Source: Pseudanabaena sp. UBA1465 (GTDB taxonomy: Bacteria; Cyanobacteriota; Cyanobacteriia; Pseudanabaenales; Pseudanabaenaceae). Taken from it: a DNA stretch of 32,000 bases. The notes below the pieces were generated by a model. That model was not told the origin of the DNA. It did no database searches and saw nothing but the letters and a program-made list of their open reading frames with translations. Shown here piece by piece: positions 11,941 to 23,750 of this stretch. The stretch's first letter is position 1, and every line of letters starts with the position of its first letter. The stretch is taken from contig DCSN01000229.1 in the NCBI GenBank assembly GCA_002325645.1, positions 6,143 through 38,142 on the forward strand, given 5' to 3'. The position numbers and the translations under genes are program-made.

Positions 11941-14109
11941 ATGTCTGAAACTATCCCTTCTATCCATGCCACACCTCACACTGTTAAAACCCTCTGCCCC
12001 TATTGTGGTGTCGGCTGTGGTTTGGAAATTGTGGAAACCACGAAAGAGCCAACCGTAAAATTTCCCGATCGCTTCAAAGTTCGAGGCGATCGCCGTCATC
12101 CATCTAGTCAAGGTATGGTCTGCGTCAAAGGCGCAACCGTTGCCGAATCCATTCAAAAGGATCGGCTATTACATCCAATGATGCGCGATCGCCTCGATCA
12201 AGAATTTCGCCAAGTCAGTTGGGAGCAAGCGTTTAGCGCGATCGTAAATCGAATTCAGAAAGTGCTGGCTACCACAGGGGCGGACGCTCTCTGTATGTTT
12301 GGTTCGGGGCAGTTTCAGACTGAGGACTATTACATAGCCCAGAAATTATTTAAAGGGTGTTTGGGAACCAATAATTTTGACGCAAATTCCCGTCTCTGTA
12401 TGTCTTCCGCCGTTTCAGGCTATGTCAAAAGCTTGGGAGCCGATGGTCCTCCCTGCTGCTATGAAGATTTTGAGTTAACTGATTGTCTATTTGCGATCGG
12501 TACAAATACTGCCGAATGTCATCCGATTATTTTCAATCGCTTTCGTAAATACCATAAAAAAAATCCCCATGTAAAGCTAATTGTCGTTGATCCACGCCGC
12601 ACTCAAACCGCCGAAGTTGCTGACCTCCATTTAGCGATTCAACCAGCAACAGATATTGATTTGTTAAATGGGATCGCTCACCTATTATTAAAATGGAATA
12701 AATGCGATCGCGCCTTCATCGAGAACCACACCACAGGTTTTGGTGAATTTCAAGAAATCACCGAACTTTATACTCCCGAATTTGTATCGCGGCGCTGTGG
12801 CATTAGCATCGAAGATTTGGAACTAGCTGCTAAATATTGGGCAGAATCGCAGCGAGTTCTCTCGATCTGGTCAATGGGAGTCAATCAATCCATTCAAGGC
12901 ACGGCAAAAGTGCAATGTATCATTAATCTGCATTTACTCACGGCTCAAATTGGGAAAGAAGGCACAGGTCCCTTTTCGCTCACAGGTCAGCCCAACGCAA
13001 TGGGAGGCAGAGAAGCGGGAGGTTTAGCCCAGTTATTACCTGGCTATCGCTTTGTCACTAATCCCGATCATCGTGCCGAATTAGAACAATTCTGGAATTT
13101 ACCTGCGGGACAAATTTCACCTCAAGTCGGTCGCACCGCATGGGATATCGTGCGCGGTTTAGAAGCCGATCAAGTTGATTTGCTCTGGATTGCGGCCACT
13201 AATCCCGCTGTTAGTTTTCCCGATTTAGTGCGAACCAAAGCCGCGTTAAGGCGATCGCCTTTCACCGTTTATCAAGATGCCTATTACCCCACCGAAACCT
13301 CTGAATTTGCCCATATCCTCCTGCCAGCAACCCAATGGAGCGAGAAGACTGGCACAATGACCAATTCTGAGCGTTGCGTCACTCTCTGTCAAGCCTTTCA
13401 GCCCCCTCTCGGTGAATCCCTTGCCGATTGGAAAATCTTTGCCGAAGTTGGTCGGAGATTAGGTTTTGCCGATAAGTTCCCATTCCAAAACTCCGCCGAG
13501 GTCTATGCCGAATTTGTGCAGATTACCCGCGATCGCCCTTGTGATATGACAGGTATTAGCCATGCCAAACTTGCGGAACTAGGCGCAATCCAATGGCAAG
13601 CTTCCGATCAACATCCTGAGCAAGATCAATTGCATAATAAGCGTCTCTACACCGATCTGCAATTCCATACAGGCGATCGCAAAGCTAGATTTGGAGCCTA
13701 TCATTCTCAAGGTGTATTTGAAGTTCCCGATGACCAGTATCCCTTCATTCTCACCAATGGCAGGGTATACGGACATTGGCATACGCAAACTCGCACAGGT
13801 CGCATTGATAAGATTCGGCAAATGTATCCGCATCCCTTTCTCGAAATCCATCCCAAAGATGCAGCTAGATTTTCCATTAACAATGGAGATTTAGTGGAAG
13901 TGAAATCACGACGCGGTTCTTCTAAGTTTCCTGCATTGGTGACGGAGGCGATCGCACGCGGTGTGTTATTTGTACCAATGCATTGGGGAACGCTCTGGGC
14001 GGACAATGCGGAAGCCAATGCTCTCACCCATCCCGAAGCTTGTCCCGACTCGAAGCAACCAGAGTTAAAGGCTTGTGCAGTGGCGATATCCTTAGTTAAT
14101 TTGCCTTAG
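11941..14109 (+). CDS. narB: Assimilatory ferredoxin-nitrate reductase (molybdopterin oxidoreductase)
   Basis: N-terminal 4Fe-4S motif CPYCGVGCG...C, followed by MopB-family blocks. It lies at the end of the nir-nrt cluster. Confidence 0.9.
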
Positions 14110-14121
14110 TAGATTTGTAGT

Positions 14122-14170
14122 AAGAAAAAACTTAAAAGTGTTGCGAAGCAACACTTTTAAGTTTTTTCTT
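14122..14170 (+). terminator. Terminator hairpin after narB
   Basis: aagaaaaaacttaaaagtgttgc gaa gcaacacttttaagttttttctt is a perfect 23-bp stem ending in a T-run. Confidence 0.7.
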
Positions 14171-14283
14171 GGTTTGGATTTGAGCGCAAAGCGCTGTAAG
14201 TGTTTCTCTGGTGCTGATGTAAAATGAAAACATCGGTAAACTTCGTGGTGTAAATAATTATGACTTACGCAAAAGACCGAAAT

Positions 14284-14382: not shown

Positions 14383-14808
14383 ATGGAAGAATTGTTAGAA
14401 CTTAAGGGATTTTTACTTGATGGCAATATCCATGAGGCTTTGCTGTTGGTTGAGGAAATGACGGAAATGAGCAAAGACGACAAGCTGAATAAAATCTCCA
14501 GTTTTGCAAAGCTCCTCTTGTTGCATTTAATCAAGCGCCAAGCCGAAGGACATACAACGCGATCGTGGGATGCTTCTATTGAGAATGCTGTCTATGAAAT
14601 TCAAAAAACTAATCGTCGTCGTAAATCTGGTGGTAACTACTTATCGATTGAAGAATTAAGGGAAGCCATAAGTGATGCCTATCGAGTGGCTCTGTCTAGT
14701 GCGGCGGCGGCGGCTTTCGGTGGTTGTTATACAGTGTCACAGTTAGCTGATATGGTCGATCGCAATACCATAATTCAAGAGGCGATCTCGTTAGTTTCTA
14801 GTAGCTGA
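14383..14808 (+). CDS. Small helical protein, DUF29-like (paralogue A1 of the NLR-operon accessory protein)
   Basis: 141 aa with an AGGAGG Shine-Dalgarno. It is about 65 percent identical by eye to the ORF at 15352-15783. The pattern LLVEEMTEMSKDDK...LLLHLIKRQAEGHTTRSWDASI resembles the DUF29 pattern (EEIE.L.....hhhHLLKW......RSW..TI). Confidence 0.75.
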   Translation: MEELLELKGFLLDGNIHEALLLVEEMTEMSKDDKLNKISSFAKLLLLHLIKRQAEGHTTRSWDASIENAVYEIQKTNRRRKSGGNYLSIEELREAISDAYRVALSSAAAAAFGGCYTVSQLADMVDRNTIIQEAISLVSSS

Positions 14809-14853: not shown

Positions 14854-15348
14854 ATGGAGCCTGTTTCTTTGCTTATGGGTTTGTTGGTGATTGTGGGTAC
14901 AGGCTCATTAACTAAGGTTGGTGAAAATATTACCGATGAAACAGTGAAACTGGCTCGATCGCTCTGGTCAATTCTCAGTCGCAAGGCTCCAGATTCGCAG
15001 ACGGCTAGGTTAATTGAGGCAGGGAAAGAGATTGATTATCAGCAAGCGGTAATTGATGTGGAGGCGATCGCTGATGATCCTGATGTGATTAAGTTGTTGG
15101 ATGAAGTGCGATCGCTTTTATCTAGCAATCAAGAATTAGCGACGAAGGTTGAAGAGTTGGTGGTACAGGCTAAAATTGGGTCAAAAAGTGTACAAGTGAT
15201 GGCTAATGATATTGAGGGCGTAAACCTTCGCGCAAAATCGATGAAGCAAACAGCGCCATCGGTTAGCGGTTCGGTCGAGCAAACGATGTTAAAAAATGTC
15301 AAGGTAACGGGTGATATTGATTTGGGTGATTTAACTCAGGAGGCTTAG
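14854..15348 (+). CDS. Bell-like putative membrane-targeting effector with a C-terminal NLR-matching (amyloid-signalling-like) motif
   Basis: 164 aa. N-terminal hydrophobic helix MEPVSLLMGLLVIVGTGSL, a helical body, and the C-terminal tail QTMLKNVKVTGDIDLGDLTQ, which aligns with residues 9-28 of the downstream NB-ARC protein. Confidence 0.65.
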   Translation: MEPVSLLMGLLVIVGTGSLTKVGENITDETVKLARSLWSILSRKAPDSQTARLIEAGKEIDYQQAVIDVEAIADDPDVIKLLDEVRSLLSSNQELATKVEELVVQAKIGSKSVQVMANDIEGVNLRAKSMKQTAPSVSGSVEQTMLKNVKVTGDIDLGDLTQEA

Positions 15349-15351
15349 GTG

Positions 15352-15783
15352 ATGGAAGAGTTATTAGAACTGAAGGGATTTTTGCTCAGTGGCAATATCT
15401 CTGATGCTTTGTTGTTGGTGGAGGAGATGACAGAAATGAGCAAGGATGACAAAATCAACAAGATTTCTAGCTACGCGAAGATTGTCATCTCTCATTTGAT
15501 TAAACGGGCTGCGGAAAAACGCACAACTAGATCTTGGGATCTGTCAATCAAACATGCGGTTAACGAAATTCAGAAAACAAATCGGCGGCGTAAGGCTGGC
15601 GGTAAATATATTGCTGATTCTGAATTGTTCGAGACATTTAATGAGGCATATCCTTTTGCTTTAGATTTGGCTGCTGTTGAGGCGTTTGGTGGGCATTATG
15701 AATCGGCTGAGTTGGGTGCGATGGTTGATCGCGATCGCGTAATTCAAGAGGCGATCGCTTTAGTTTTGGGTGAGGCAACATGA
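15352..15783 (+). CDS. Small helical protein, DUF29-like (paralogue A2), translationally coupled to the NLR gene
   Basis: The ATG lies 4 nt after the stop of the effector gene (TAG GTG ATG) and behind an AGGAGG Shine-Dalgarno. The stop overlaps the next start (ATGA at 15780-15783). It starts MEELLELKGFLL, like A1. Confidence 0.75.
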   Translation: MEELLELKGFLLSGNISDALLLVEEMTEMSKDDKINKISSYAKIVISHLIKRAAEKRTTRSWDLSIKHAVNEIQKTNRRRKAGGKYIADSELFETFNEAYPFALDLAAVEAFGGHYESAELGAMVDRDRVIQEAIALVLGEAT

Positions 15784-18269
15784 CGACAGATCCGAAAAAT
15801 CAACAGTCGGCTTTACAAGGTAATGATGTGGGGCGCGACCTCACAATTGGTAACATCACTCAGACCATTAACTATAACCAAATTGTAGAGGAGGCAAAAC
15901 GGGCAGGAAGCTTGCTGAATCTTCCGCAGACTAATGTGACTTTTTTTGCGGGACGGGATGAGGATCTGGAAAAGGTGCATGAACTTTTGCAGAAAAATCA
16001 GAAGGTGGCGGTGTCTGCTTTTGTGAAAGGCATGGGTGGTGTCGGTAAGTCGGAACTTGCCCTGCAATATGCGTTACGGCATCTGTTGACGGACTATGGC
16101 GGCGGGATCTGTTGGTTACGGGGAAATGAGGGGACTTTGCCGACCCAGTTACAGGATTTTGTACAGGTGCAGCTTGGGGAAACGATGCCCGATGGGTTGA
16201 ATAGTGGCGAAAAGTTGGCAGGGCATTGCTGGCGGCGGCTATCGGAACGGGTGGCGGGGCAAATGTTGGTGGTGTTGGATGATGTGAAAGATTATGGGAA
16301 TGTGGAGCCATTTTTGCCAACCCTAGATGGCAAGTTTCGGGTATTGGTGACAACGCGGTTGGGATTGGGGAATGCGATGCAGCAATACAGGTTAGATGTT
16401 TTGGTGTTGGCGGCGGCAGTGGATTTGCTAAAGTCGTTTTTGCCTGAAGCCGATCCGCGTCGGGAGAATGAAGAAGCAATCAAAAATCTCTGTACATGGT
16501 TGGGGCGGTTGCCTTTAGCGATCGAGTTGGTGGGGCGGTATTTGGCTTTGCCGAATCAGTTAGATACTGGTATTTCTGAGATCTTGCAACGTTTGCAAGG
16601 GGAATGTATGGTGCAGCTTTCAGAAATTACTGATGAGGAAAGGAAGTTATTACCCAAAAATCTAAATGTGGCGGCTTCATTTTTCTTGAGTTGGCAAGAG
16701 TTGTCACCTTTGGCGCAACGTTTGGCTTGTTTGTTGGGTTTATTTGCTTTAGCGCCGATTCCTTGGACTTTAATCCAGTCTGTGATGCTAGATGAGACAA
16801 AGCAAAAACAATCTTTTTGGCAAGGTTTGCAAGGGCTGTTTCAAAAAAAAGCGGTGGCGCTTACGGAACGAGATTTGCAAGGGGCAAGGGGAGAGTTGCT
16901 AAATCTGCATTTGTTGGAACGGACGCAACAGGGAGTATATGAATTGCATCAGCTTTTGCGGGAATATTTTCAGTTTCAATTGCAACAACATCCCGAATGG
17001 CAAGTTTTGCGGCAACAGGTGGCGGTATCACTGCTGAATATTTCTAAGGGAATTGAAGAAATAATCACTATTGATCAAGTTAAAGAAGTTGCACCCGCGA
17101 TTCCCCATCTAGAAATACTCGGACGGGAAATGTTGGCTGTTATTCCCAATCCTGAAGATAATTTAGTTTGGGCATTTTTGGGAGTTGCTAGGTTTTACAA
17201 AGGTCAAGGGCTATATGCTTCAGCAGTAGATCCATATCAAACCTGCCTCAAAGTCTCCGAATCACACTTAGGAGCAGACCATCCCTCTGTCGCCACCAGT
17301 CTCAATAATCTCGCAGAACTTTACCGCGTGCAAGGAAAATACAGCGAAGCCGAACCTCTCTATCTGCGATCGCTCGAAATCAGGGAACGTCAACTAGGGG
17401 CAGACCATCCCGATGTCGCCCAAAGTCTCAACAATCTCGCAGGACTTTACAATTCGCAAGGGAAGTACAGCGAAGCCGAACCTCTCTATCGGCGATCGCT
17501 CGAAATCAGGGAACGCCAACTAGGAGCAGACCATCCCGATGTCGCCACCAGTCTCAACAATCTCGCGTTACTTTACGAATCGCAAGGGAAGTACAGCGAA
17601 GCCGAACCTCTCTATCGGCGATCGCTCGAAATCGATAAACGCATCTATGGAGAAGACCATCCCGAAATCGCAACAGATCTCAACAATTTCGCAGGTCTTT
17701 ACCGATCGCAAGGGAAGTACAGCGAAGCCGAACCTCTCTATGTGCGATCGCTCGAAATCGATAAACGCATCTATGGAGAAGATCATCCCGAAATCGCAAC
17801 AGATCTCAACAATCTCGCATTACTTTACAAATCGCAAGGGAAGTATAGTGATGCCGAACCTCTTTATCTGCGATCGCTCGAAATCAGGGAACGCCAACTA
17901 GGGGCAGACCACCCAGATGTCGCAATAGATATCAACAATCTCGCATTACTTTACGATAATCAAGGGAAGTACAGCGAAGCCGAACCTCTCTATCTGCGAT
18001 CGCTCGAAATCAGGGAACGCCAACTAGGGGCAGACCACCCAGATGTCGCCCAAAGTCTACTCAACTTAGCCGCTCTCTATCACAATACCCAACGTCATCC
18101 CGAAGCCCTGCAATCCATCCAACGCGCCATCCAAATTTACGAACAAAAACTTGGCACAGAGCATCCCAACACTCAAAATGCACTTGGTTGGCTTCAGACA
18201 ATCCGTGCAGCCAATAAACCTAGTTTTCCTATAGAATTCTTGCTAAACACAAAACCTCCTACCCCATGA
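15780..18269 (+). CDS. STAND NTPase: short N-terminal signalling motif + NB-ARC + TPR array (bacterial NLR-like protein)
   Basis: Walker A GMGGVGKS (16029-16052), Walker B LVVLDDV (16263-16283), RVLVTTR and GRLPLAIELVG (16503-16523). These are followed by about eight 42-aa TPR units of the kinesin-light-chain type (TPR_10/12-like). Confidence 0.9.
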   Translation: MTTDPKNQQSALQGNDVGRDLTIGNITQTINYNQIVEEAKRAGSLLNLPQTNVTFFAGRDEDLEKVHELLQKNQKVAVSAFVKGMGGVGKSELALQYALRHLLTDYGGGICWLRGNEGTLPTQLQDFVQVQLGETMPDGLNSGEKLAGHCWRRLSERVAGQMLVVLDDVKDYGNVEPFLPTLDGKFRVLVTTRLGLGNAMQQYRLDVLVLAAAVDLLKSFLPEADPRRENEEAIKNLCTWLGRLPLAIELVGRYLALPNQLDTGISEILQRLQGECMVQLSEITDEERKLLPKNLNVAASFFLSWQELSPLAQRLACLLGLFALAPIPWTLIQSVMLDETKQKQSFWQGLQGLFQKKAVALTERDLQGARGELLNLHLLERTQQGVYELHQLLREYFQFQLQQHPEWQVLRQQVAVSLLNISKGIEEIITIDQVKEVAPAIPHLEILGREMLAVIPNPEDNLVWAFLGVARFYKGQGLYASAVDPYQTCLKVSESHLGADHPSVATSLNNLAELYRVQGKYSEAEPLYLRSLEIRERQLGADHPDVAQSLNNLAGLYNSQGKYSEAEPLYRRSLEIRERQLGADHPDVATSLNNLALLYESQGKYSEAEPLYRRSLEIDKRIYGEDHPEIATDLNNFAGLYRSQGKYSEAEPLYVRSLEIDKRIYGEDHPEIATDLNNLALLYKSQGKYSDAEPLYLRSLEIRERQLGADHPDVAIDINNLALLYDNQGKYSEAEPLYLRSLEIRERQLGADHPDVAQSLLNLAALYHNTQRHPEALQSIQRAIQIYEQKLGTEHPNTQNALGWLQTIRAANKPSFPIEFLLNTKPPTP
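17205..18215 (+). repeat. Tandem 126-bp (42-aa TPR) repeats: six near-identical units (17331-18086) flanked by degenerate units
   Basis: The unit start caagg(g/a)aa(g/a)ta recurs at 17331, 17457, 17583, 17709, 17835 and 17961, an exact 126-nt period. Every unit contains a HIP1 site (GCGATCGC, encoding RSLE). Confidence 0.95.
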
Positions 18270-18294
18270 GCCGCTTTTTGCGATTACAAGGAAA

Positions 18295-18627
18295 TTAAAC
18301 TTCTTCATCTAAAAAAGGTAAAAGATCCTCTAAGTCTCTCATCCCATGCAAAACTCTTAGAACTTCGACTCGATCCTCTAGAACCTTGTAAAAAATCAAA
18401 TAATCCTTAAAATTCTTAATTCGCCATTGACGGATCGTTCCCATATCAGACAAAACTAATGGCACAACCCTACCCATATTGGGAGTTATCCCTAGCTGCG
18501 CGAAAGCATACTCAGCAAATTCTAGAAATCTCTCAGCCGCATCTCGATTTCCCATCGCTAAAATATAATTTGCCTGTCGCCTGATATCTTGGGTAGCGTG
18601 ATCGCGAACAATTATCGGAAAAGTCAT
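18295..18627 (-). CDS. parE: ParE-family toxin (RelE/ParE superfamily)
   Basis: MTFPIIVRDHATQDIRRQANYI...AAERFLEFAEYAFAQL...IRQWRIKNFKDYLIFYKVLEDRVEVLRVLHGMRD is the typical ParE pattern. The start is taken at the ATG at 18625-18627, 5 nt after the parD stop. Confidence 0.8.
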   Translation of the reverse strand: MTFPIIVRDHATQDIRRQANYILAMGNRDAAERFLEFAEYAFAQLGITPNMGRVVPLVLSDMGTIRQWRIKNFKDYLIFYKVLEDRVEVLRVLHGMRDLEDLLPFLDEEV

Positions 18628-18632
18628 ACTTG

Positions 18633-18887
18633 CTACTGCTCTGTTCCAAGTACCGACAATCGGAGATCTTGCCAATAAGCTGAAGTTACCAGTTCAGGCT
18701 CTGAGTTCAAACCCTCTTGTAACAAACTCACTAGTTTTGTCTGAGCCTCCCTCCTTTGCCGATCTTGATTCAGCAAAGCCAGAAAATAATCCGCCACAGT
18801 ATTATAAGTTCCAGACTGAATCTGTCCTTGAACATAGGACTCAAGTTCTTTTGGTATTGGAAAACTTACATTCATAAACCTTTTCAA
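18633..18887 (-). CDS. parD: ParD-family antitoxin
   Basis: MNVSFPIPKELESYVQGQIQSGTYNTVADYFLALLNQDRQR is the ParD4/COG3609-like pattern. It sits directly upstream of parE. Confidence 0.75.
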   Translation of the reverse strand: MKRFMNVSFPIPKELESYVQGQIQSGTYNTVADYFLALLNQDRQRREAQTKLVSLLQEGLNSEPELVTSAYWQDLRLSVLGTEQ

Positions 18888-18923
18888 GATGAATAAAGTA
18901 CTGCCAATAATTTTAGCATTAGT

Positions 18924-19004
18924 CGAGAACTAGGCGCAGACCATCCGACAACTCAAAATGCACTTGGTTGGCTTCAGGTGAGCAAGGAAAAAGGAAAAGG
19001 GTAA
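18924..19004 (+). pseudogene. Relic of an NLR/TPR gene 3' end (RELGADHPTTQNALGWLQVSKEKGKG stop)
   Basis: Positions 18951-18977 are identical (27 nt) to 18171-18197 in the intact NLR gene. No upstream coding body is present. Confidence 0.75.
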
Positions 19005-19076
19005 AAGGAAAAATGTGGATTTTTTGAGTTTTGTTGGTTGATGTTATCTTAGGACATAGGATTAGGCTAAAAGTAT

Positions 19077-19328
19077 ATGTATCAAGTCACACTAAATTAC
19101 GCCAAAGCAAACCTTGATGAACTATGCGATCGGGCAGGTCAAGAACCAGAAGGAGTAGCGATCGTTCGTGAAAATCGCAGTTATATTCTGATTACTCAAG
19201 AAGAATGGGAATCTCTAATTGAAACTGCGGAATTAATGCAATTACCCAACCTGCTCACCCAAGTTGCATCTGCTCGCCAAGAATATCAAGCAGGAGAAGC
19301 ACTCTCTATGGAGCAAGTCTTTGGATGA
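19077..19328 (+). CDS. Phd/YefM-family antitoxin
   Basis: MYQVTLNYAKANLDELCDRA....VAIVRENRSYILITQEEWESLIETAELM is the typical Phd/YefM fold pattern. It overlaps the next gene by ATGA. Confidence 0.8.
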   Translation: MYQVTLNYAKANLDELCDRAGQEPEGVAIVRENRSYILITQEEWESLIETAELMQLPNLLTQVASARQEYQAGEALSMEQVFG

Positions 19329-19582
19329 AAATCTACAGAGTCCTCTTTTCTAAACAAGCTCAAAAAGATATCAGCGAACTCACATCTAAACAAAAAGCAA
19401 AACTCCAAGAAATTTTGCTTAACACACTCGCCCCCAATCCTTACCTCGGAAAAGCGCTAAAAGGTGACCTGAACGGTTTGCGTTCCTATCGTCTTAACCT
19501 CAAAGATCGCATTGTTTACGAGATTTATGAAGAAGACCAATCAATATTGATCATTAGAGCAAAAACTCACTATGGAGAATAA
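19325..19582 (+). CDS. relE: RelE/ParE-family toxin
   Basis: KIYRVLFSKQAQKDISEL...GKALKGDLNGLRSYRLNLKDRIVYEIYEEDQSILIIRAKTHY is the RelE/StbE-like pattern. Confidence 0.8.
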   Translation: MKIYRVLFSKQAQKDISELTSKQKAKLQEILLNTLAPNPYLGKALKGDLNGLRSYRLNLKDRIVYEIYEEDQSILIIRAKTHYGE

Positions 19583-19799
19583 CTACAGCATTTCTATCCA
19601 ATGGTCAGAAGAAGACCGTAAATTTATCGCTCACTTACCCGAATTTGGTCCCTACGCCCACACTCACGGCGACACCTACGCTCATGCCCTAGAAAATGCC
19701 CTAGAAGTTTTGGAATTACTAATTGAGGATTACACCGCTCGTCACAAACCCTTACCAACACCACGCATAATTAAAAAATCCGACTTCATTGCAGCTTGA
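19572..19799 (+). CDS. hicB: HicB-family antitoxin-like protein (no intact hicA partner)
   Basis: YSISIQWSEEDRKFIAHLPEFGPYAHTHGDTYAHALENALEVLELLIEDYTARHKPLPTP is the HicB/UPF0150 pattern. It overlaps the relE 3' end by 11 nt. Confidence 0.75.
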   Translation: MENNYSISIQWSEEDRKFIAHLPEFGPYAHTHGDTYAHALENALEVLELLIEDYTARHKPLPTPRIIKKSDFIAA

Positions 19800-19819
19800 T
19801 AAGAGTAGACTATCTATCT

Positions 19820-20002
19820 GTTACCACCAGTCTCAACGGTCTCGCATCACTTTACGAATCGCAAGGGAAGTACAGCGAAGCCGAACCTCTTTATGTGTGA
19901 GCTATCCAAATCCTTGAAAAAGCCCTTGGTTCCGAGCATCCCAATACCGTCACAGCCCGCCAAAATTATGAGATTATGTGCGAAACCATGAAGGAGACAT
20001 AA
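19820..20002 (+). pseudogene. TPR gene fragment with an in-frame stop (VTTSLNGLASLYESQGKYSEAEPLYV-stop-AIQILEKALGSEHPNTVTARQNYEIMCETMKET)
   Basis: It is nearly identical to the TPR unit of the NLR gene (tacgaatcgcaagggaagtacagcgaagccgaacctct). A TGA replaces the Arg codon expected in LYxRSLEI. The body 5' of it is missing. Confidence 0.8.
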
Positions 20003-20107
20003 ATGGGAAAATACGAAAAATTTAGACAAAAACTGCTTGATGGCGGCAGCGACAACAGTAATGCAATTAAGAAAAAGAAAAAATCGCAAATACTGAATCT
20101 ACCATAA
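20003..20107 (+). pseudogene. Possible truncated hicA-like toxin remnant (34 codons)
   Basis: MGKYEKFRQKLLDGGSDNSNAI resembles the N-terminus of one HicA subfamily as I remember it. The rest (KKKKKSQILNLP) is unrelated and short. Confidence 0.3.
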
Positions 20108-20120
20108 CCAGAACCTAACC

Positions 20121-20381
20121 ATGAATACATCCACTAAAACCATCAAAGTTTACGATGAAATTGTTGACTTTATTGCATCTGGCACAACGCCCCAGAGCGT
20201 AATCGACTTCCATCTTTCTGAAGCCGCACAAGAGCGCTTAGAAGATTTAATATACAACGCTAAAAACAATGCGCTTACAAAAGAAGACAAGCGTGAACTA
20301 GACCATTTCCTGACAATAGAACATATATTGACCCTAGCCAAAGCTAAAGCCCATAGATACATCAACACTGAGGCTAAATGA
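20121..20381 (+). CDS. Small helical protein of unknown function, coupled to the downstream HNH nuclease gene
   Basis: 86 aa. Its stop lies 1 nt before the next ATG. The C-terminal half EDKRELDHFLTIEHILTLAKAKAHRY is amphipathic and helical. Confidence 0.6.
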   Translation: MNTSTKTIKVYDEIVDFIASGTTPQSVIDFHLSEAAQERLEDLIYNAKNNALTKEDKRELDHFLTIEHILTLAKAKAHRYINTEAK

Positions 20382-20382
20382 A

Positions 20383-20823
20383 ATGCCTCGAACCTATATT
20401 AGCGTTCAGCTAAGGCAATTAGTCATCGAACGCGCTGACAGCATTTGTGAATACTGTTTGGTTTCAGCATCAGATAGATCCTCTAGTTGCCAAGTTGACC
20501 ACATCATTAGCGTGAAACATGGCGGCGATTCGACAGCCGAAAATCTTTGCTATGCTTGCCTATTCTGTAACCTGCAAAAAGGCACAGATCTAGGCTCGAT
20601 TAATTGGCGAAGCGGAGAACTTGTCAGATTCTTTAACCCTCGTAGAGATTTATGGAGAGAACATTTTCAACTAGATGGAGCGATAATTCGATCAACTACA
20701 GATATCGGCGAAGTCACAGCAAGAATCCTTGATTTTAATGATGCAGATCGTATTTTAGAGCGACAAATACTCATCGAAAATAACAGATATCTATCAACAG
20801 CAGCCAAAAAGAAAATAGGCTAA
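20383..20823 (+). CDS. HNH endonuclease
   Basis: CEYC...QVDHIISVKHGGDSTAENLCYACLFCNLQKG contains CxxC, the HNH His-Asn core and a second CxxC zinc ligand pair. Confidence 0.8.
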   Translation: MPRTYISVQLRQLVIERADSICEYCLVSASDRSSSCQVDHIISVKHGGDSTAENLCYACLFCNLQKGTDLGSINWRSGELVRFFNPRRDLWREHFQLDGAIIRSTTDIGEVTARILDFNDADRILERQILIENNRYLSTAAKKKIG

Positions 20824-20844
20824 ATAAGTTAAACTAAGGCGATC

Positions 20845-20866
20845 GGTTGGCTTCAGTAGATCCGTG
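20845..20866 (+). repeat. Third short relic of the NLR gene 3' end (ggttggcttcag ta gatccgtg)
   Basis: It matches 18186-18207 of the intact gene (GWLQ.IR region) with 3 mismatches. Confidence 0.55.
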
Positions 20867-20907
20867 ATGTCCTGTAAAATAAGAAGATAAAGCGATCGCA
20901 AAAAACA

Positions 20908-21117
20908 ATGACTACCAAAGAAAAGCTAATTCAAGAAGTCGAAAACATTTCTGAATCATTATTAGCAGAAACCCTTGACTTTGTATTGTTTCTCAAATCT
21001 CGCTATGCAGAAGAGGAAATAACTACAGAAGAAAAAGAAAACATTCTCGCTTCTCAAACAGCCTATCTTTCAGGTGATTACCTAACCCTCGACCAATACG
21101 AGGCAAATCAAGCATGA
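20908..21117 (+). CDS. Antitoxin-like small protein (DUF2281-like)
   Basis: KEKLIQEVENISESLLAETLDFVLFLKSRY is the DUF2281-type N-terminus. It overlaps the downstream relE-type gene by ATGA. Confidence 0.65.
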   Translation: MTTKEKLIQEVENISESLLAETLDFVLFLKSRYAEEEITTEEKENILASQTAYLSGDYLTLDQYEANQA

Positions 21118-21368
21118 GCTATCGCATCGTTATCCCTAAACCCGCCCAAAAGCAACTAGATAACATCACAAAAATTGAACGCGATCGCTTGATTCTAACA
21201 TTGCGCTCTCTAGCCAACGATCCGCGTCCGAACGGAGTTAAAAAGCTCAAAGGCTACGACAATACCTATCGTGTCAGAGTTGGAGACTATCGCATTATCT
21301 ACGAAATTAAAGACAGAGAGCTAATTGTATTATTGTTAAGTGTCAGTCATCGTAAAGATGTCTACTAA
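21114..21368 (+). CDS. relE: RelE/ParE-family toxin
   Basis: YRIVIPKPAQKQLDNI......L..LANDPRPNGVKKLKGYDNTYRVRVGDYRIIYEIKDRELIVLLLSVSHRKDVY is the canonical RelE pattern. Confidence 0.85.
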   Translation: MSYRIVIPKPAQKQLDNITKIERDRLILTLRSLANDPRPNGVKKLKGYDNTYRVRVGDYRIIYEIKDRELIVLLLSVSHRKDVY

Positions 21369-21380
21369 CAGAAAAAAAGA

Positions 21381-21627
21381 TTCTATTGTCAGCAACCCCG
21401 CACTGAAGTGACGGGGCTTCGAGCCGAAAGCTTGGAGCCGTGCTGACCAGCCTAAGTCTTAACTGACTACGTTATTTAGGTCACGACACCTCGGAATGCT
21501 TGCTAGTTCCCCGCTCTGTCGTTTGTAATTAAACAGTTCTAAGGTCACTGGAACAGTGTTGCAAGCCTAACAAGCCTAGATAACCTTGGCAAAGCAAACA
21601 TTACAAGCAATTAGAAAAGACGCAATA
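21381..21627 (+). ncRNA. Omega-RNA-like structured region upstream of the IscB relic
   Basis: It occupies the position of an IscB omega-RNA scaffold, roughly 250 nt directly 5' of the IscB start. It has a stem-loop ccccgcac-tgaa-gtg(a)cgggg (21396-21416) and a further hairpin cactg-gaa-cagtg. Several blocks are shared with the minus-strand element at 30978-31384. Confidence 0.5.
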
Positions 21628-21906
21628 ATGTCTAACCAAATCTTCGTATTAGATACTAATCACAAACCGCTAACACCTTGCACAGCAGGAATGGCTCGAT
21701 CATTACTCAAAGCTGGTAGGGCGGCTGTATTCCGTCAATTCTCCTTCACGATTATTAAAAAAAAAGAGGTAACTGCTACACCAGAACCAATCGAGATAAA
21801 GATTGATGCTGGCTCCAAGACAACGGGATTAGCTTTAGTTCAAGACGAAAAAGTTATCTATTGCAAAACTATTCATCGCAAGGATGGCTATAGCTATGGT
21901 TTCTAA
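21628..21906 (+). pseudogene. iscB: IscB (IS200/IS605-family OMEGA nuclease) relic with a large internal in-frame deletion
   Basis: The N-terminus MSNQIFVLDTNHKPLTPCTAGMARSLLKAGRAAVFRQFSFTII...IEIKIDAGSKTTGLALV is the PLMP domain plus the RuvC-I Asp motif. It joins directly to the IscB C-terminal signature CKTIHRKDGYSYGF. The bridge helix, RuvC-II/III and HNH segments (about 300 aa or more) are missing. Confidence 0.7.
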
Positions 21907-21969
21907 TATCTACTGGCGGTTTGAAACCAACCTTCGCTTACCTCTCAGCGCTAAAGCGCGGAGTTTCTC

Positions 21970-22188
21970 GTGTATCGAGAGGTCTTTTATGAAGAAGAAC
22001 TCCGCAACGCCCTAAAAGAAGCACTCAAAAATTACAACGCAGCCTTTGAAAGAGAAAATAGCTATGGCAAAAAATATATAATTGACTTTTCGATGAACAG
22101 ACGGGATAAGCAAGCGATCGTTCGTAGCGTCTGGATTGTCCGTTTTGAAGAAAATTTTCCCCGTTTAGTCACCTGTTACATACCTTAA
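21970..22188 (+). CDS. DUF6883-like protein, apparently 5'-truncated
   Basis: EELRNALKEALKNYNAAFERENSYGKKYIIDFSMN...AIVRSVWIVRFEENFPRLVTCYI matches the C-terminal two thirds of the DUF6883 pattern. The usual N-terminal 40 aa or so are absent and the only start is a GTG. Confidence 0.5.
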   Translation: MYREVFYEEELRNALKEALKNYNAAFERENSYGKKYIIDFSMNRRDKQAIVRSVWIVRFEENFPRLVTCYIP

Positions 22189-22200
22189 AAGGAGATAATC

Positions 22201-22422
22201 ATGAAATTATTAGATGTAGTTGCACTTTTAGAAGATGTCCCCAACTGTCAATTATATCGAGGACAAGTCGGCACAATTGTAGAAATTTACGAACCTAAAG
22301 TCTTTGAAGTCGAATTTAGCGACCTCAATGGAAGAGCCTATGCGATCGAAACCCTAACAGAGAGACAACTAATGGTTTTATACCATCACCCCATCCAAGA
22401 AAGACAATTAGTTGCTGCCTAG
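22201..22422 (+). CDS. DUF4926 domain protein
   Basis: MKLLDVVALLEDVPNCQLYRGQVGTIVEIYEPKVFEVEFSDLNGRAYAIETL is the typical DUF4926 pattern. An AGGAG lies upstream. Confidence 0.7.
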   Translation: MKLLDVVALLEDVPNCQLYRGQVGTIVEIYEPKVFEVEFSDLNGRAYAIETLTERQLMVLYHHPIQERQLVAA

Positions 22423-22433
22423 ATTTAGGTTTG

Positions 22434-22459
22434 TCAGTCTCAGCAATCTCGCATCACTA
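22434..22459 (+). repeat. Fourth TPR-gene relic (cagtctcagcaatctcgcatcact)
   Basis: It matches the SLNNLA(S)L coding stretch of the TPR units and of the fragment at 19820. Confidence 0.5.
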
Positions 22460-22467
22460 ACGCCACC

Positions 22468-22572
22468 CTTAGATTTAAAACCCGTCATATTGATGCAGAA
22501 ATAACCACCGAAGAACAAGACACGATCGCCGCTTCTCAATCCGCCTATGAATTAGGAGGCTATCTCACCTGA
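22468..22572 (+). pseudogene. Relic of a DUF2281-like antitoxin 3' half (LRFKTRHIDAEITTEEQDTIAASQSAYELGGYLT stop)
   Basis: It aligns with FLKSRYAEEEITTEEKENILASQTAYLSGDYLT of the ORF at 20908-21117. It has no N-terminal part and no start codon. Confidence 0.65.
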
Positions 22573-22586
22573 GTGGCAACAGCTAT

Positions 22587-23750
22587 ATGCGAGAATATGC
22601 GATAAATCCACTAAAAAGCATCATGCAACTATTTAGCCGCCGTAACATTCGCCTGTTTGGGATCATTTTTGTGATTACAGTGCTGTTATTTGCGCTTGGA
22701 TGGTTTATATTTTTGCGTCCTGAAGTCACTAGTTTAAATAAATCTGTACAGGTAGCAGGATCGAGTCTCCAAAATATTACCCTCACTGAATTTGATGCGA
22801 ATGGGAAATTACTTTGGGAAATTACTTCTAAACAAGCTAATTATCGTCAAGATCGCAAAATTGCTGATGTTAAAGAGGTGAAGGGAAAGTTTTATCGTAA
22901 TGGTGAACCTCTGATGGAGGTAACTGGCGATAAAGGTACAATCGATCAAGTTTCTAAGGAAATTTCGTTAGAAGGCAACATTAAAGCGATCGCAGTTCAA
23001 GAAAAAATCGATATGACCGCCGATCGCATGGTTTGGAAATCGGAACAGGATTTGCTCAAAGCGACAGGCAATATCCAGATCAATAAACCTGAAGATAAAA
23101 TTAAAATGACTGGTAAGGAACTTACCGCTAAGCCCAGTACCAATGTCTACAGCCTCGCAAAAAATGTGATCGTTATAGCTGCTGAGCCAGCGTTAGAAAT
23201 GAAGAGTGAAAAAATTACTTGGGATGCGAAGCGCGATCGCGTCTACACAGAATCTCCCATTTCCGTGTTGCAGGTCAAAGATAAATTACAGCTATTTGCC
23301 AACAAAGGTGATTGGAATATTCAGACAAAAGAAGTGACTTTTTCTGGTGATATTAAAGCGAAAGATCCCAAACTAGATCTTGATCTAGAAACATCTCAGG
23401 CTTTGTGGAATCTTGATAAAAAATTAGTAACCTTGCCCGTAGAATTTACTGCTACCAGTAAAAGTCGGGGCATTGTCGTTAAGGCTCAACAGGGGCAAGC
23501 TCAACTTAAAGAAGAACGGATTAACCTTACAGGACAAGTTTCTGCAAGTTTGCAGTCTACTCAAGGTATCGTCAATGCTGATCGGGTGGAATGGTTAATT
23601 CCCACGAAAATAGTTACGGCGGATGGCAATATCGTTTATAAGCAGCCCGATAAAAATCTCAATGTGCAAGGCGATCGCGCTGTGGCTAATCTGGAATTAC
23701 AAACAGTTACGATTACAGGTACAAATGTAATTTCGACATTAACTCCTTAG
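22587..23750 (+). CDS. LptC/OstA-like periplasmic LPS-transport protein (long cyanobacterial form)
   Basis: An N-terminal membrane anchor (IRLFGIIFVITVLLFALGWFIF), followed by repetitive beta-rich OstA-like segments. Confidence 0.5.
   Translation: MREYAINPLKSIMQLFSRRNIRLFGIIFVITVLLFALGWFIFLRPEVTSLNKSVQVAGSSLQNITLTEFDANGKLLWEITSKQANYRQDRKIADVKEVKGKFYRNGEPLMEVTGDKGTIDQVSKEISLEGNIKAIAVQEKIDMTADRMVWKSEQDLLKATGNIQINKPEDKIKMTGKELTAKPSTNVYSLAKNVIVIAAEPALEMKSEKITWDAKRDRVYTESPISVLQVKDKLQLFANKGDWNIQTKEVTFSGDIKAKDPKLDLDLETSQALWNLDKKLVTLPVEFTATSKSRGIVVKAQQGQAQLKEERINLTGQVSASLQSTQGIVNADRVEWLIPTKIVTADGNIVYKQPDKNLNVQGDRAVANLELQTVTITGTNVISTLTP

What the first reader, a model, noticed from the sequence alone, without database searches (positions are those of the whole stretch)
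18171..22572. Toxin-antitoxin cassettes interleaved with relics of NLR/TPR gene 3' ends, including a 27-bp direct repeat bracketing parDE
Seen in the sequence: five TA-like modules lie downstream of the intact NLR gene. Short remnants of the same NLR/TPR gene family separate them.
- 18924-19004 encodes ELGADHPTTQNALGWLQ... Positions 18951-18977 are identical to 18171-18197 of the intact gene, so the parDE cassette is bracketed by a 27-bp direct repeat 780 nt apart.
- 19820-20002 is one TPR unit plus a C-terminal cap, with a CGA to TGA nonsense change.
- 20845-20866 reads ggttggcttcag..gatccgtg.
- 22434-22459 reads cagtctcagcaatctcgcatcact.
- 22468-22572 is a relic of a second DUF2281-like antitoxin.

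Inference, with two readings:
- (a) TA cassettes integrate repeatedly at a preferred site in the NLR 3' end (core around GGTTGGCTTCAG) and duplicate it like an att site.
- (b) Several NLR paralogues, each followed by a TA module, once stood here, and their bodies were lost by recombination between TPR repeats.

Either way, this is a recombination hotspot that couples addiction modules to an NLR locus. It defines an island of about 8.4 kb between narB and the LptC-like gene.
Basis: partly seen in the sequence, partly recalled or inferred. Interest (0 to 1): 0.65.

Follow-up and report, generated by a model that had tools for sequence, protein, structure and literature searches.

The report
Toxin-antitoxin array stitched by TPR-gene-end relics
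Downstream of an NLR-like immune gene in a Pseudanabaena-type cyanobacterium, small toxin-antitoxin gene pairs alternate with leftover 3' ends of related TPR genes, and comparison with other genomes suggests these leftovers are the joints at which ordinary homologous recombination adds, removes and reorders the pairs without any integrase.

Summary
All five relics exist at the stated coordinates and are far beyond chance. I found more decay products: a HicA stub, a truncated DUF6883 gene and a gutted IscB with an intact omega-RNA.

The att-site reading is not supported:
- The 27-bp repeat is the most conserved stretch of a family-wide C-terminal "cap" (...QKLGTEHPxTQNALGWLQ...). It recurs with 0-7 mismatches in 19 further cap copies in other loci.
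- It is not a target-site duplication. The relics differ in length and tail type, two lack the core, and no recombinase is present.

What other genomes show:
- Each relic stays joined to the TA operon that follows it, and in other genomes that same pair follows a full-length STAND-TPR gene.
- Some left junctions recur with different right-hand sides. One contig carries a chimeric relic whose crossover lies inside the cap core and lacks 1.85 kb of cassettes.
- Cassette order is permuted between genomes.
- Of 35 TPR ends surveyed by eye, about 29 are followed directly by a TA-type pair.

Best explanation: homologous recombination between conserved TPR ends builds and reshuffles the array, much like C-terminal displacement in Rhs/CDI loci. 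Microhomology deletions then trim it, and addiction protects the TA genes. In the sampled population the array is fixed and only toxins decay.

Verdict: a new variant of a known kind, of moderate interest.

The parts
14854..15348 (+). 164-aa Bell-like gene. Its C-terminal motif matches the N-terminus of the NLR. It is part of the island's upstream half.
   Evidence: No Pfam hit. Motif pairing is seen in the window, L045 and L028. Homologues precede the STAND gene in L027, L028, L039, L045 and L050.
15349..15783 (+). DUF29 gene wedged between the Bell-like gene and the NLR. A second copy lies at 14383-14808.
   Evidence: Pfam DUF29. The two copies are 70% identical in DNA.
15780..18269 (+). Intact NB-ARC/TPR (STAND, NLR-like) gene of 829 aa. 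It has 126-nt TPR units from 17271 and a C-terminal cap at 18027-18269 ending ...NALGWLQTIRAANKPSFPIEFLLNTKPPTP*.
   Evidence: Pfam NB-ARC and TPR_12. Period-126 repeats. The identical protein occurs on 13 contigs.
18171..18197 (+). 27-mer, copy 1, inside the intact cap.
   Evidence: The same 27-mer occurs with 0-7 mismatches in 19 cap copies in other loci.
18295..18627 (-). parE toxin (110 aa as called).
   Evidence: Pfam ParE_toxin, 3.6e-15. A 65-nt deletion variant is in L009.
18633..18875 (-). parD-like antitoxin (80 aa).
   Evidence: NCBIfam TIGR02606, 7.4e-9, below the curated cutoff. 96% aa identity in L027.
18924..19004 (+). Relic R1: the last 26 codons of a TPR gene with the tail VSKEKGKG*. 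It contains 27-mer copy 2 (18951-18977).
   Evidence: It is contiguous with phd/relE behind a long TPR-ending gene in L029, at 91% nt. The same parD|R1 junction is in L027 and L034.
19077..19582 (+). phd/yefM antitoxin (19077-19328) and ParE/RelE-like toxin (19325-19582).
   Evidence: Pfam. An internal toxin deletion variant is in L010.
19572..19799 (+). Orphan hicB-like antitoxin of 75 aa. Its hicA partner is lost through a junction at about 19580.
   Evidence: Weak Pfam HicB_lk hit. It is paired with HicA in L030 and L045.
19800..20002 (+). Relic R2: one TPR unit plus a different cap (...ARQNYEIMCETMKET*), with an in-frame TGA.
   Evidence: The HicB|TPR-unit junction is shared with L030, L031 and L045. 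The cap is 96% identical to L062, where hicAB follows it.
20003..20107 (+). hicA stub. This 34-aa ORF is homologous to HicA only up to 20063, then fused by deletion to the leader of the next cassette.
20121..20823 (+). 86-aa gene plus a 146-aa HNH endonuclease (PtuB-like HNH). A putative TA-like pair.
   Evidence: Pfam HNH. PADLOC PtuB-like. The pair is conserved in L027, L041 and L045. In L045 it directly follows the intact NLR.
20836..20877 (+). Relic R3: a cap-core stub, (K)AIGWLQ*IRDVL*, of the TIRDAV tail type.
   Evidence: It is contiguous with DUF2281/relE behind TPR-ending genes: full length in L036 and L042, split open frame in L028. Identity is 92% nt for L028 and L036.
20908..21368 (+). 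DUF2281 antitoxin (20908-21117) and ParE/RelE toxin (21114-21368).
   Evidence: Pfam.
21388..21906 (+). HEARO/IscB omega-RNA (21388-21604) followed by a gutted IscB ORF (21586-21906).
   Evidence: Rfam RF02033, 159.8 bits. Pfam RRXRR matches positions 1-80 of 174. The segment is absent in L036.
21970..22422 (+). N-terminally truncated DUF6883 (21970-22188) and DUF4926 (22201-22422).
   Evidence: Pfam: DUF6883 covers profile positions 45-108 of 110, and DUF4926 scores 2.8e-26.
22435..22458 (+). Relic R4: a 24-nt piece of a TPR unit.
   Evidence: A 120-nt version follows DUF4926 in L045.
22468..22572 (+). C-terminal relic of a second DUF2281 antitoxin. Its toxin partner is gone. This is the right edge of the island.
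   Evidence: 86% nt identity to the intact gene in L045.

Best explanation
The segment 18.2-22.6 kb is an accreted and eroding array of units. Each unit is the 3' end of a STAND-TPR gene (a conserved cap, a short tail and a stop codon) plus the type II toxin-antitoxin operon that natively lies within about 30-75 nt of that stop.

**Shown**
- The relics are homologous to the 3' ends of TPR genes that in other genomes are followed by the same TA operon.
- Left and right halves of relics re-assort between genomes.
- Cassette order differs between genomes.

**Inferred mechanism**
1. The cap and TPR units are multi-copy and conserved at the DNA level (80-100%) among paralogues and between related species.
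2. General, RecA-type homologous recombination therefore pairs them. The partner can be incoming DNA or another copy in the same or a sister chromosome.
3. A crossover in the TPR or cap region brings a new 3' end plus its TA module behind the resident gene. The old 3' end and its TA module are pushed downstream as a relic. This resembles C-terminal displacement.
4. Recombination between two relics loops cassettes out, duplicates them or permutes them.
5. Short-homology deletions then trim whatever is dispensable: gene bodies, relic 5' parts, and eventually toxins.
6. Deletions that would remove an antitoxin or its promoter are counter-selected by the toxin. TA modules therefore pile up like a ratchet.

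No site-specific recombinase is involved. The 27-bp repeat is the best-conserved stretch of the cap and not an insertion duplication.
For: 1. **Relic+TA linkage elsewhere.**
   - R1-type tail plus phd/relE follows a long TPR-ending gene in L029 at 91% nt. The frame there is split, so this may be one gene. It also follows the caps of L038 and L040.
   - R3-type tail plus DUF2281/relE follows full-length genes in L036 and L042, and a split gene in L028 (92% nt for L028 and L036).
   - The R2 cap plus hicAB occurs in L062 and L030.
   - The long tail plus parED occurs in L034.
   - The closest NLR, in L045 (74% aa, 82.7% nt), ends in another cap directly followed by the 86-aa/HNH pair at 91.6% nt.
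2. **Re-assortment at relics.**
   - The parD|relic junction is shared by the window, L027 and L034. In L034 the relic continues with the R3-type tail and DUF2281/relE, with the switch inside a 25-nt cap-core overlap. L034 lacks window 18982-20835.
   - The HicB|TPR-unit junction is shared by the window, L030, L031 and L045, with four different continuations.
3. **Permuted order.** In L029, phd-relE is followed by a parD fragment. In L034, DUF2281-relE' is followed by an HNH fragment. In L027, DUF4926 precedes the 86-aa/HNH pair.
4. **The cap is far more conserved than the rest of the gene.** Cap identity is 64-89% aa against 29-34% in the N-terminal half in L036, L038, L039, L040 and L042.
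5. **Generality.** The cap search returned mostly stand-alone short ORFs. L030 holds at least 6 relics alternating with TA pairs in 4.9 kb. Of 35 TPR ends or relics I tabulated by eye in 18 loci, about 29 are followed directly by a TA-type pair or its remnant.
6. **More recent exchange than the species split.** The parD-R1-phd block is 94% identical to UWO311, and its non-coding part is 91%. Core genes are 82-84%.
7. **Erosion in progress.** Microhomology deletions in parE and relE occur in co-occurring variants. Relic size and integrity decline with distance from the gene.
8. **No recombinase.** None is present in the 32 kb.
Against: - No cassette-level polymorphism was found. More than 20 contigs from several samples and assemblers carry the same array. 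Any shuffling is slow, on a between-species timescale.
- No empty site and no circular intermediate was observed.
- Several breakpoints are plain illegitimate junctions outside relics: 19580, 20063, 19416|22281 and 18482.
- Comparator loci are mostly short-read metagenome contigs. Repeated cassettes could create chimeric assemblies.
- Many comparator arrays are related by descent, so the counts are not independent.
- Deletion alone, acting on an ancestral array with duplications, could produce much of the pattern.
Confidence: 0.58

Rival explanations
1. Strict reading (b). Several complete STAND-TPR paralogues, each with its own TA module, once stood in tandem at this very locus. Only deletions, with no import and no relic-to-relic recombination, removed their bodies. 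TA addiction protected the small operons.
For: - Relic+TA units match full-length gene+TA units elsewhere.
- Many junctions are illegitimate deletions.
- The array is stable in the sampled population.
Against: - No locus with two full-length family members in tandem was seen among about 70 loci.
- Deletion alone cannot explain permuted orders, unless extra duplications are assumed.
- It does not explain the same left junction carrying different right halves, as in the L034 chimeric relic.
- The TA blocks are about 10 points more similar to UWO311 than the core genes are.
Confidence: 0.22
2. Reading (a). TA cassettes are mobile elements inserted by a site-specific recombinase at a core (GGTTGGCTTCAG) in the NLR 3' end. 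Each insertion duplicates the core as an att site.
For: - Three exact copies of the 12-mer, all in the same orientation, lie at cassette boundaries.
- The crossover in L034 lies in this core.
- Cassette-specific DNA starts at about the same distance after the stop codon in different units.
Against: - No integrase, transposase or attC-like palindromes were found.
- R2, R4 and the cap of L045 lack the core, yet sit at the same kind of boundary.
- Homology extends well beyond the core on the left and into the tails on the right. The relics are diverged gene ends of variable length.
- The junction is older than the split from UWO311, and there the two copies are not identical.
Confidence: 0.07
3. 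The relics are kept mainly because they are functional. They would carry the promoter or operator of the downstream TA operon; for example, the TAAAAT that overlaps the TPR stop codon could be a -10 box. They would not be kept for a role in recombination. This reading can coexist with the best explanation.
For: - DUF2281 starts only about 30 nt after the TPR stop, so any promoter of its own must lie in the cap.
- R3 spans about -72 to -31 relative to the ATG.
- TGTAAAAT is conserved in caps upstream of different TA families.
Against: - A consensus promoter scan found nothing above chance and no site in R3.
- R1 ends 73 nt before phd.
- R4 precedes a dead gene.
- parDE is read from the opposite strand.
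Confidence: 0.1
4. Chance similarity to abundant TPR sequence, or an assembly artefact.
For: TPR_12 repeats are abundant in cyanobacteria, and repeats break or mis-join short-read assemblies.
Against: - Shuffle controls give 0.01 and 0 expected matches.
- Homologous, longer versions sit at the same positions in other genomes.
- The window's arrangement is reproduced on more than 20 independent contigs.
Confidence: 0.02

Closest known systems
C-terminal displacement and orphan modules in Rhs and CDI (cdiA-CT/cdiI) loci (PMC3150448; Jackson et al. 2009, cited from memory)
   Same: - A full-length gene is followed by an array of 5'-truncated copies of its own 3' end.
- Each copy keeps a conserved stretch that allows homologous recombination with the main gene.
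- Each copy is followed by a small protective gene.
- The array grows when new ends displace old ones.
   Different: - The displaced fragments here encode no toxin domain. The tails are only 6-25 residues.
- The variable cargo is an autonomous TA operon downstream of the stop codon, in either orientation.
- The host gene is an intracellular STAND-TPR sensor rather than a secreted toxin.
Sedentary chromosomal integrons with TA cassettes (e.g. Vibrio; 10.1101/2022.08.03.502626, PMC11023631)
   Same: - An ordered array of small cassettes, many of them TA modules, separated by a repeated sequence.
- The TA modules are thought to protect the array from deletion.
   Different: - There is no IntI, attI or attC here.
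- The separators are relics of a protein-coding gene end, of variable length.
- The recombination inferred is homologous rather than site-specific.
Defence islands and TA accumulation next to NLR-like or other defence genes (general knowledge: Makarova et al. 2011)
   Same: A variable, non-syntenic island next to core genes holds a STAND NTPase, TA modules, an HNH nuclease and a decayed IS-type element.
   Different: The regular alternation with relics of one gene family's 3' end, and the re-assortment at those relics, are not part of the usual description.
Bell-domain/BASS amyloid-signalling NLR gene pairs of filamentous bacteria (bioRxiv 10.1101/2020.01.06.895854)
   Same: - The upstream 164-aa protein ends in a short motif that matches the NLR N-terminus.
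- The NLR has the NB-ARC plus TPR architecture, with highly similar repeats.
- Pseudanabaena is among the genera listed in that paper.
   Different: - This comparison concerns the host gene rather than the array.
- The Bell domain was not confirmed by a profile.
- A DUF29 gene, or a TA pair in relatives, sits between the two genes, which are normally adjacent or overlapping.

Membership tests
Integron cassette array | IntI tyrosine recombinase and attI next to the array | tested here: not met
   No integrase among the Pfam-annotated genes of window 1941-28269 or in the remaining ORFs.
Integron cassette array | attC imperfect palindrome at the end of every cassette | tested here: not met
   The inverted-repeat search of 15700-22700 found no arms at cassette boundaries. 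The separators are direct, coding-derived TPR fragments.
Integrative island with att duplication | Identical core repeats of fixed extent at both ends of each inserted unit, created at insertion | tested here: not met
   - Copies are 77-88% alike outside the 12-27 nt core, and their lengths are 24-183 nt.
- The 27-mer is a family-wide conserved stretch.
- The same junction in L027 and L034 has non-identical copies.
Integrative island with att duplication | Element-encoded site-specific recombinase | tested here: not met
   A recombinase acting in trans from elsewhere in the genome cannot be excluded.
Rhs/CDI-type orphan (C-terminal displacement) array | Full-length gene followed by 5'-truncated fragments of its own 3' region that retain a conserved recombination-competent segment | tested here: met
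   Relics R1-R4. Recombinant relic in L034.
Rhs/CDI-type orphan (C-terminal displacement) array | Fragments encode polymorphic toxin domains, each followed by a cognate immunity gene. The host gene is Rhs/YD or CdiA. | tested here: not met
   The tails are 6-25 aa with no domain. The host gene is NB-ARC/TPR. The array works like this family but is not a member.
Type II toxin-antitoxin modules | Two small adjacent or overlapping genes with recognised antitoxin and toxin families | tested here: met
   - parE with a parD-like gene (ParD hit below the NCBIfam cutoff), phd/relE-like, and DUF2281 (just below the Pfam cutoff) with relE-like.
- Inconclusive for 86-aa/HNH and for DUF6883'/DUF4926.
- Toxicity and neutralisation cannot be tested here.
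IS200/IS605-family IscB element | omega-RNA (HEARO) upstream of a full-length IscB with RuvC and HNH domains | tested here: inconclusive
   The HEARO RNA is complete at 159.8 bits. The IscB ORF is only 106 aa, with the RRXRR N-terminus alone. This is a decayed member.
Bell/BASS-NLR amyloid signalling pair | Matching short motif at the C-terminus of the upstream effector and the N-terminus of the NLR | tested here: met
   Visual matches in the window, L045 and L028. There was no statistical model, and the Bell domain itself was not tested with a profile.

The most novel reading that the evidence does not exclude
The conserved 3' caps of a multi-copy STAND-TPR (NLR-like) gene family may serve as portable homology handles for a whole guild of addiction modules.
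- The guild would include ParDE, Phd/RelE, HicAB, DUF2281/RelE or PIN, PBECR2/DUF2283, Rpn-like genes and an HNH pair.
- Together they would form an integrase-free cassette system.
- TA operons would spread within and between cyanobacterial genomes by RecA-mediated single or double crossovers at gene-end relics.
- Their promoters might be embedded in the cap. Rpn-family nucleases, which recur in these arrays, might assist.

If true, this would give a concrete and testable answer to how chromosomal TA loci move without mobility genes. It would also tie TA accumulation to NLR gene turnover.
Probability: 0.28. Interest if true: 0.72.

Novelty: new variant of a known kind. Interest (0 to 1): 0.55.

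Why it matters
**TA mobility.** Chromosomal toxin-antitoxin loci are notoriously mobile, yet they usually lack any mobility gene. These arrays point to a simple route. A TA operon that lands just behind a member of a multi-copy gene family with a conserved 3' end gains homology on which general recombination can act. Addiction then prevents its loss, so the modules ratchet up next to the gene.

**Analogy with polymorphic toxin loci.** Bacterial NLR-like loci appear to undergo a form of 3'-end displacement already known from Rhs/CDI loci.

**Annotation.** The many 50-130-aa "tetratricopeptide repeat proteins" called in cyanobacterial genomes and metagenomes are, at least in this family, gene-end relics.

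Tried and rejected
- **Synteny through the LptC-like gene** (genome collection). Only six relatives were found, at 78-88% aa. None has narB or the island upstream (dusB in L001, sufE in L002), so no empty site was obtained.
- **Exact-protein look-ups** of the NLR, narB, DUF2281 and the hicB-like gene. Every context is the same array. There is no cassette gain or loss in the population, only small deletions.
- **Target-site duplication or att reading.** Rejected for the reasons given in the report.
- **Promoter and terminator consensus scan** of 18100-22700. Counts do not exceed the shuffles, so the scan says nothing about promoters in relics.
- **Plasmid collection, distant blastn** of 18198-21387. 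No match, so no plasmid vector was identified.
- **Gene conversion between the intact cap and R1** as the cause of the exact 27-nt identity. This stays equivocal. L027 and L034 relics share a GCGAT variant, which encodes NAIGWLQ. That variant could be derived in their lineage rather than erased in the window.
- **A shared GATC|GGTTGG left boundary** in R3 and in an L036 relic. It is explained by the NAIGWLQ allele and is not a recombination signal.
- **Literature searches**. I found no description of TPR-relic/TA arrays.
- **PADLOC**. It finds no named defence system for the NLR, the Bell-like gene or DUF29. Only the HNH gene gives a hit, which is PtuB-like.

Full report
**What is in the window**

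The window comes from a Pseudanabaena-like cyanobacterium. The LptC-like protein is 78-88% identical to six Pseudanabaena/Phormidium genomes. Near-identical contigs come from cyanobacterial mat metagenomes. Between narB (ends at 14109) and the LptC-like gene (starts at 22587) lies an island of about 8.5 kb:

- A DUF29 gene, then a 164-aa gene, then a second DUF29 gene.
- An 829-aa NB-ARC/TPR gene at 15780-18269.
- parE/parD on the minus strand.
- phd/relE-like, with an orphan hicB-like gene.
- An 86-aa gene plus a 146-aa HNH gene.
- DUF2281/relE-like.
- A complete HEARO (IscB omega) RNA followed by a gutted IscB ORF.
- A truncated DUF6883 gene plus DUF4926.

**Checking the observation**

- The 27-mer at 18171-18197 equals 18951-18977. 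Similarity runs 50 nt to the left at 88% and stops after CAG.
- R1 reads RELGADHPTTQNALGWLQVSKEKGKG*.
- R2 is a TPR unit plus a cap with an in-frame TGA.
- R3 reads GWLQ*IRDVL*.
- R4 is a 24-nt TPR piece.
- 22468-22572 matches residues 27-60 of a DUF2281 antitoxin at 79%.

The shuffle controls exclude chance. The 12-mer GGTTGGCTTCAG occurs three times against 0.01 expected. The 24-mer occurs six times against none expected.

I add one further relic. The 34-aa ORF at 20003-20107 is the start of a hicA gene. That gene is intact behind the same cap in L062 and L030.

**The 27-bp repeat is not an insertion duplication**

A search with the last 80 residues of the NLR returned 21 proteins. Most are short ORFs of 48-130 aa that consist only of this C-terminal cap.

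Their tails fall into the same types as in the window:
- TIRAANKPSF... as in the intact gene.
- VIKEKGKG as in R1.
- TIRDAV/M as in R3.

At the DNA level the 27-mer recurs with 0-7 mismatches in 19 cap copies in other loci. It is 27/27 in L035 and 26/27 in L028.

The parD|R1 junction is shared with Pseudanabaena sp. UWO311 (L027) and with L034. In those loci the two copies that bracket parDE are not identical. The tails themselves are diverged homologues. The long tail differs from TIRDAV* by a 5-nt deletion that removes the stop codon.

**Relic and downstream TA operon form a conserved unit**

- In L029 a long ORF runs into a TPR end with the tail VIKEKGKG. This is directly followed by phd/relE, 91% identical to window 18928-19588.
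- In L036 and L042 a full-length STAND-TPR gene ends in TIRDAV and is followed by DUF2281/relE. L028 shows the same, although its open frame is split. L028 and L036 are 92% identical to window 20836-21380.
- The R2 cap is followed by intact hicAB in L062 and L030.
- The closest NLR is in L045, at 74% aa and 82.7% nt. It ends in yet another cap, directly followed by the 86-aa/HNH pair at 91.6% nt. Relative to L045, the window's gene therefore carries a different 3' end, followed by three extra cassette units before that pair.

**Relics behave as recombination joints**

- L034 has the window's parE-parD-relic left junction. However, its relic continues with the R3-type tail and DUF2281/relE. The two alignments overlap by 25 nt in the cap core, and L034 lacks window 18982-20835.
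- The HicB|TPR-unit junction (window 19799-19820) is shared with L030, L031/L032/L037 and L045. Four different caps and TA operons follow it.
- Orders are permuted. In L029, phd-relE precedes a parD fragment. In L034, DUF2281-relE' precedes an HNH fragment. In L027, DUF4926 precedes the 86-aa/HNH pair.
- The cap is much more conserved than the rest of the gene. It is 64-89% aa, against 29-34% for the N-terminal half, in L036, L038, L039, L040 and L042.
- The parD-R1-phd block is 94% identical to UWO311, and 91% in its non-coding part. Core genes are 82-84%. This indicates exchange later than the species split.

**Generality**

- L030 carries at least six TPR relics alternating with TA pairs in 4.9 kb.
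- L045 has a similar array in a different genomic context.
- More distant arrays (L046-L048) show the same alternation.
- I tabulated by eye 35 TPR ends or relics in 18 loci. About 29 are followed directly by a TA-type pair or its remnant. The families seen are ParDE, Phd/RelE, HicAB, DUF2281 with RelE or PIN, a PBECR2-like gene with DUF2283, and Gp49/HigB-like.
- The loci were found through the cap and not through TA genes. Many are related by descent, so the counts are not independent.

**What was not found**

- There is no integrase or transposase in the 32 kb, apart from the gutted IscB, and no attC-like palindromes.
- There is no plasmid match.
- More than 20 contigs from several samples and assemblers carry exactly this array.
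- The only variants are a 65-nt microhomology deletion in parE (L009) and an internal deletion of the relE-like toxin (L010). The array is therefore not visibly active in this population. What can be seen today is toxin decay.

**Mechanism**

I conclude that the array grew and was reshuffled by general homologous recombination between conserved TPR ends. The process resembles C-terminal displacement in Rhs/CDI loci. Short-homology deletions then trim the dispensable DNA. Addiction protects antitoxins and their promoters, so TA modules accumulate.

The homology, the linkage, the re-assortment and the erosion are shown. The RecA dependence, the direction of events and any circular intermediate are inferred.

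The strict "tandem paralogues eroded in place" model remains possible. However, no locus with two full-length family members in tandem was seen. That model also needs extra duplications to explain the permutations.

Caveat: most comparators are short-read metagenome contigs. The key junction sequences are unique rather than copies of either parent, which argues against chimeric assembly.

**Comparison with known systems**

- The array works like Rhs/CDI orphan arrays (PMC3150448), but it is not a member of that family.
- It resembles TA-bearing chromosomal integrons only superficially.
- I found no description of such arrays in the searchable literature.

I rate it a new variant of a known kind, of moderate interest.

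Noticed in passing
window 21388-21906: A complete HEARO/IscB omega-RNA (RF02033, 159.8 bits) is followed by an IscB ORF reduced to 106 aa. The ORF keeps the RRXRR N-terminus and a short C-terminal piece, and the RuvC/HNH core is missing. The guide RNA has outlived its nuclease. The whole segment 21388-22197 is absent in L036, where the relE end joins the DUF4926 start.
   Followed up: partly
window 14854-15348 and 15780-15880; L045 738-1154 and 1566-1900; L028 4349-4759 and 5212-5290: The 164-aa protein upstream of the NLR ends in a motif that matches the NLR N-terminus. In the window this is LKNVKVTGDIDLGDLTQ against LQGNDVGRDLTIGNITQ. In L045 it is NKLAEKIGIVVQSGGKADITTFN against NKVADKVGILAQKGSTVNIENFN. 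The pattern resembles the Bell/BASS amyloid-signalling NLR pairs of filamentous bacteria (10.1101/2020.01.06.895854).
   Followed up: partly
window 15349-15783; L045 1155-1624; L028 4756-5231: The slot between the Bell-like gene and the NLR is normally a gene overlap. Here it is occupied by a DUF29 gene in the window, L027 and L050. In L045 it holds a RelE-type TA pair, and in L028 it holds HicAB. Small selfish modules also colonise this position, and DUF29 may behave like one.
   Followed up: no
L027 8229-9002, L036 3406-4152, L041 803-1441, L062 799-888: A DUF2887/Rpn-family gene (recombination-promoting nuclease type) recurs in these arrays directly next to TPR relics. In L027 and L036 it interrupts parE at the same breakpoint, about window 18482. 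It is either another addictive cassette or a helper of the illegitimate joins.
   Followed up: partly
window 18303-18367 (L009/L019) and 19346 to about 19557 (L010/L021): Co-occurring variants carry microhomology deletions that inactivate the parE and relE-like toxins while leaving the antitoxins intact. Several contigs break exactly at these points.
   Followed up: yes
window 20873-20880 and the equivalent positions in L028, L030, L034, L035, L036, L038 and L045: TGTAAAAT, which overlaps the TPR stop codon, is conserved upstream of different TA operons. It may be the -10 box of the TA promoter, embedded in the gene end.
   Followed up: no
L027 6367-7958: In Pseudanabaena sp. UWO311 the TPR array of the orthologous NLR is interrupted by a GTPase (MMR_HSR1) fragment and a glycine-zipper ORF. 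A 77-aa cap relic follows.
   Followed up: partly
window 14105-14183: A hairpin-rich stretch lies just after narB. It draws weak miRNA-type Rfam hits. An 80-nt similar copy lies in L028 (1800-1879, opposite strand), so it is possibly a small dispersed repeat or a terminator.
   Followed up: no
window 14383-14808 vs 15349-15783: Two DUF29 genes, 70% identical in DNA, flank the Bell-like gene. UWO311 has only one, which is closer to the first copy (85% aa) although it sits in the position of the second.
   Followed up: no
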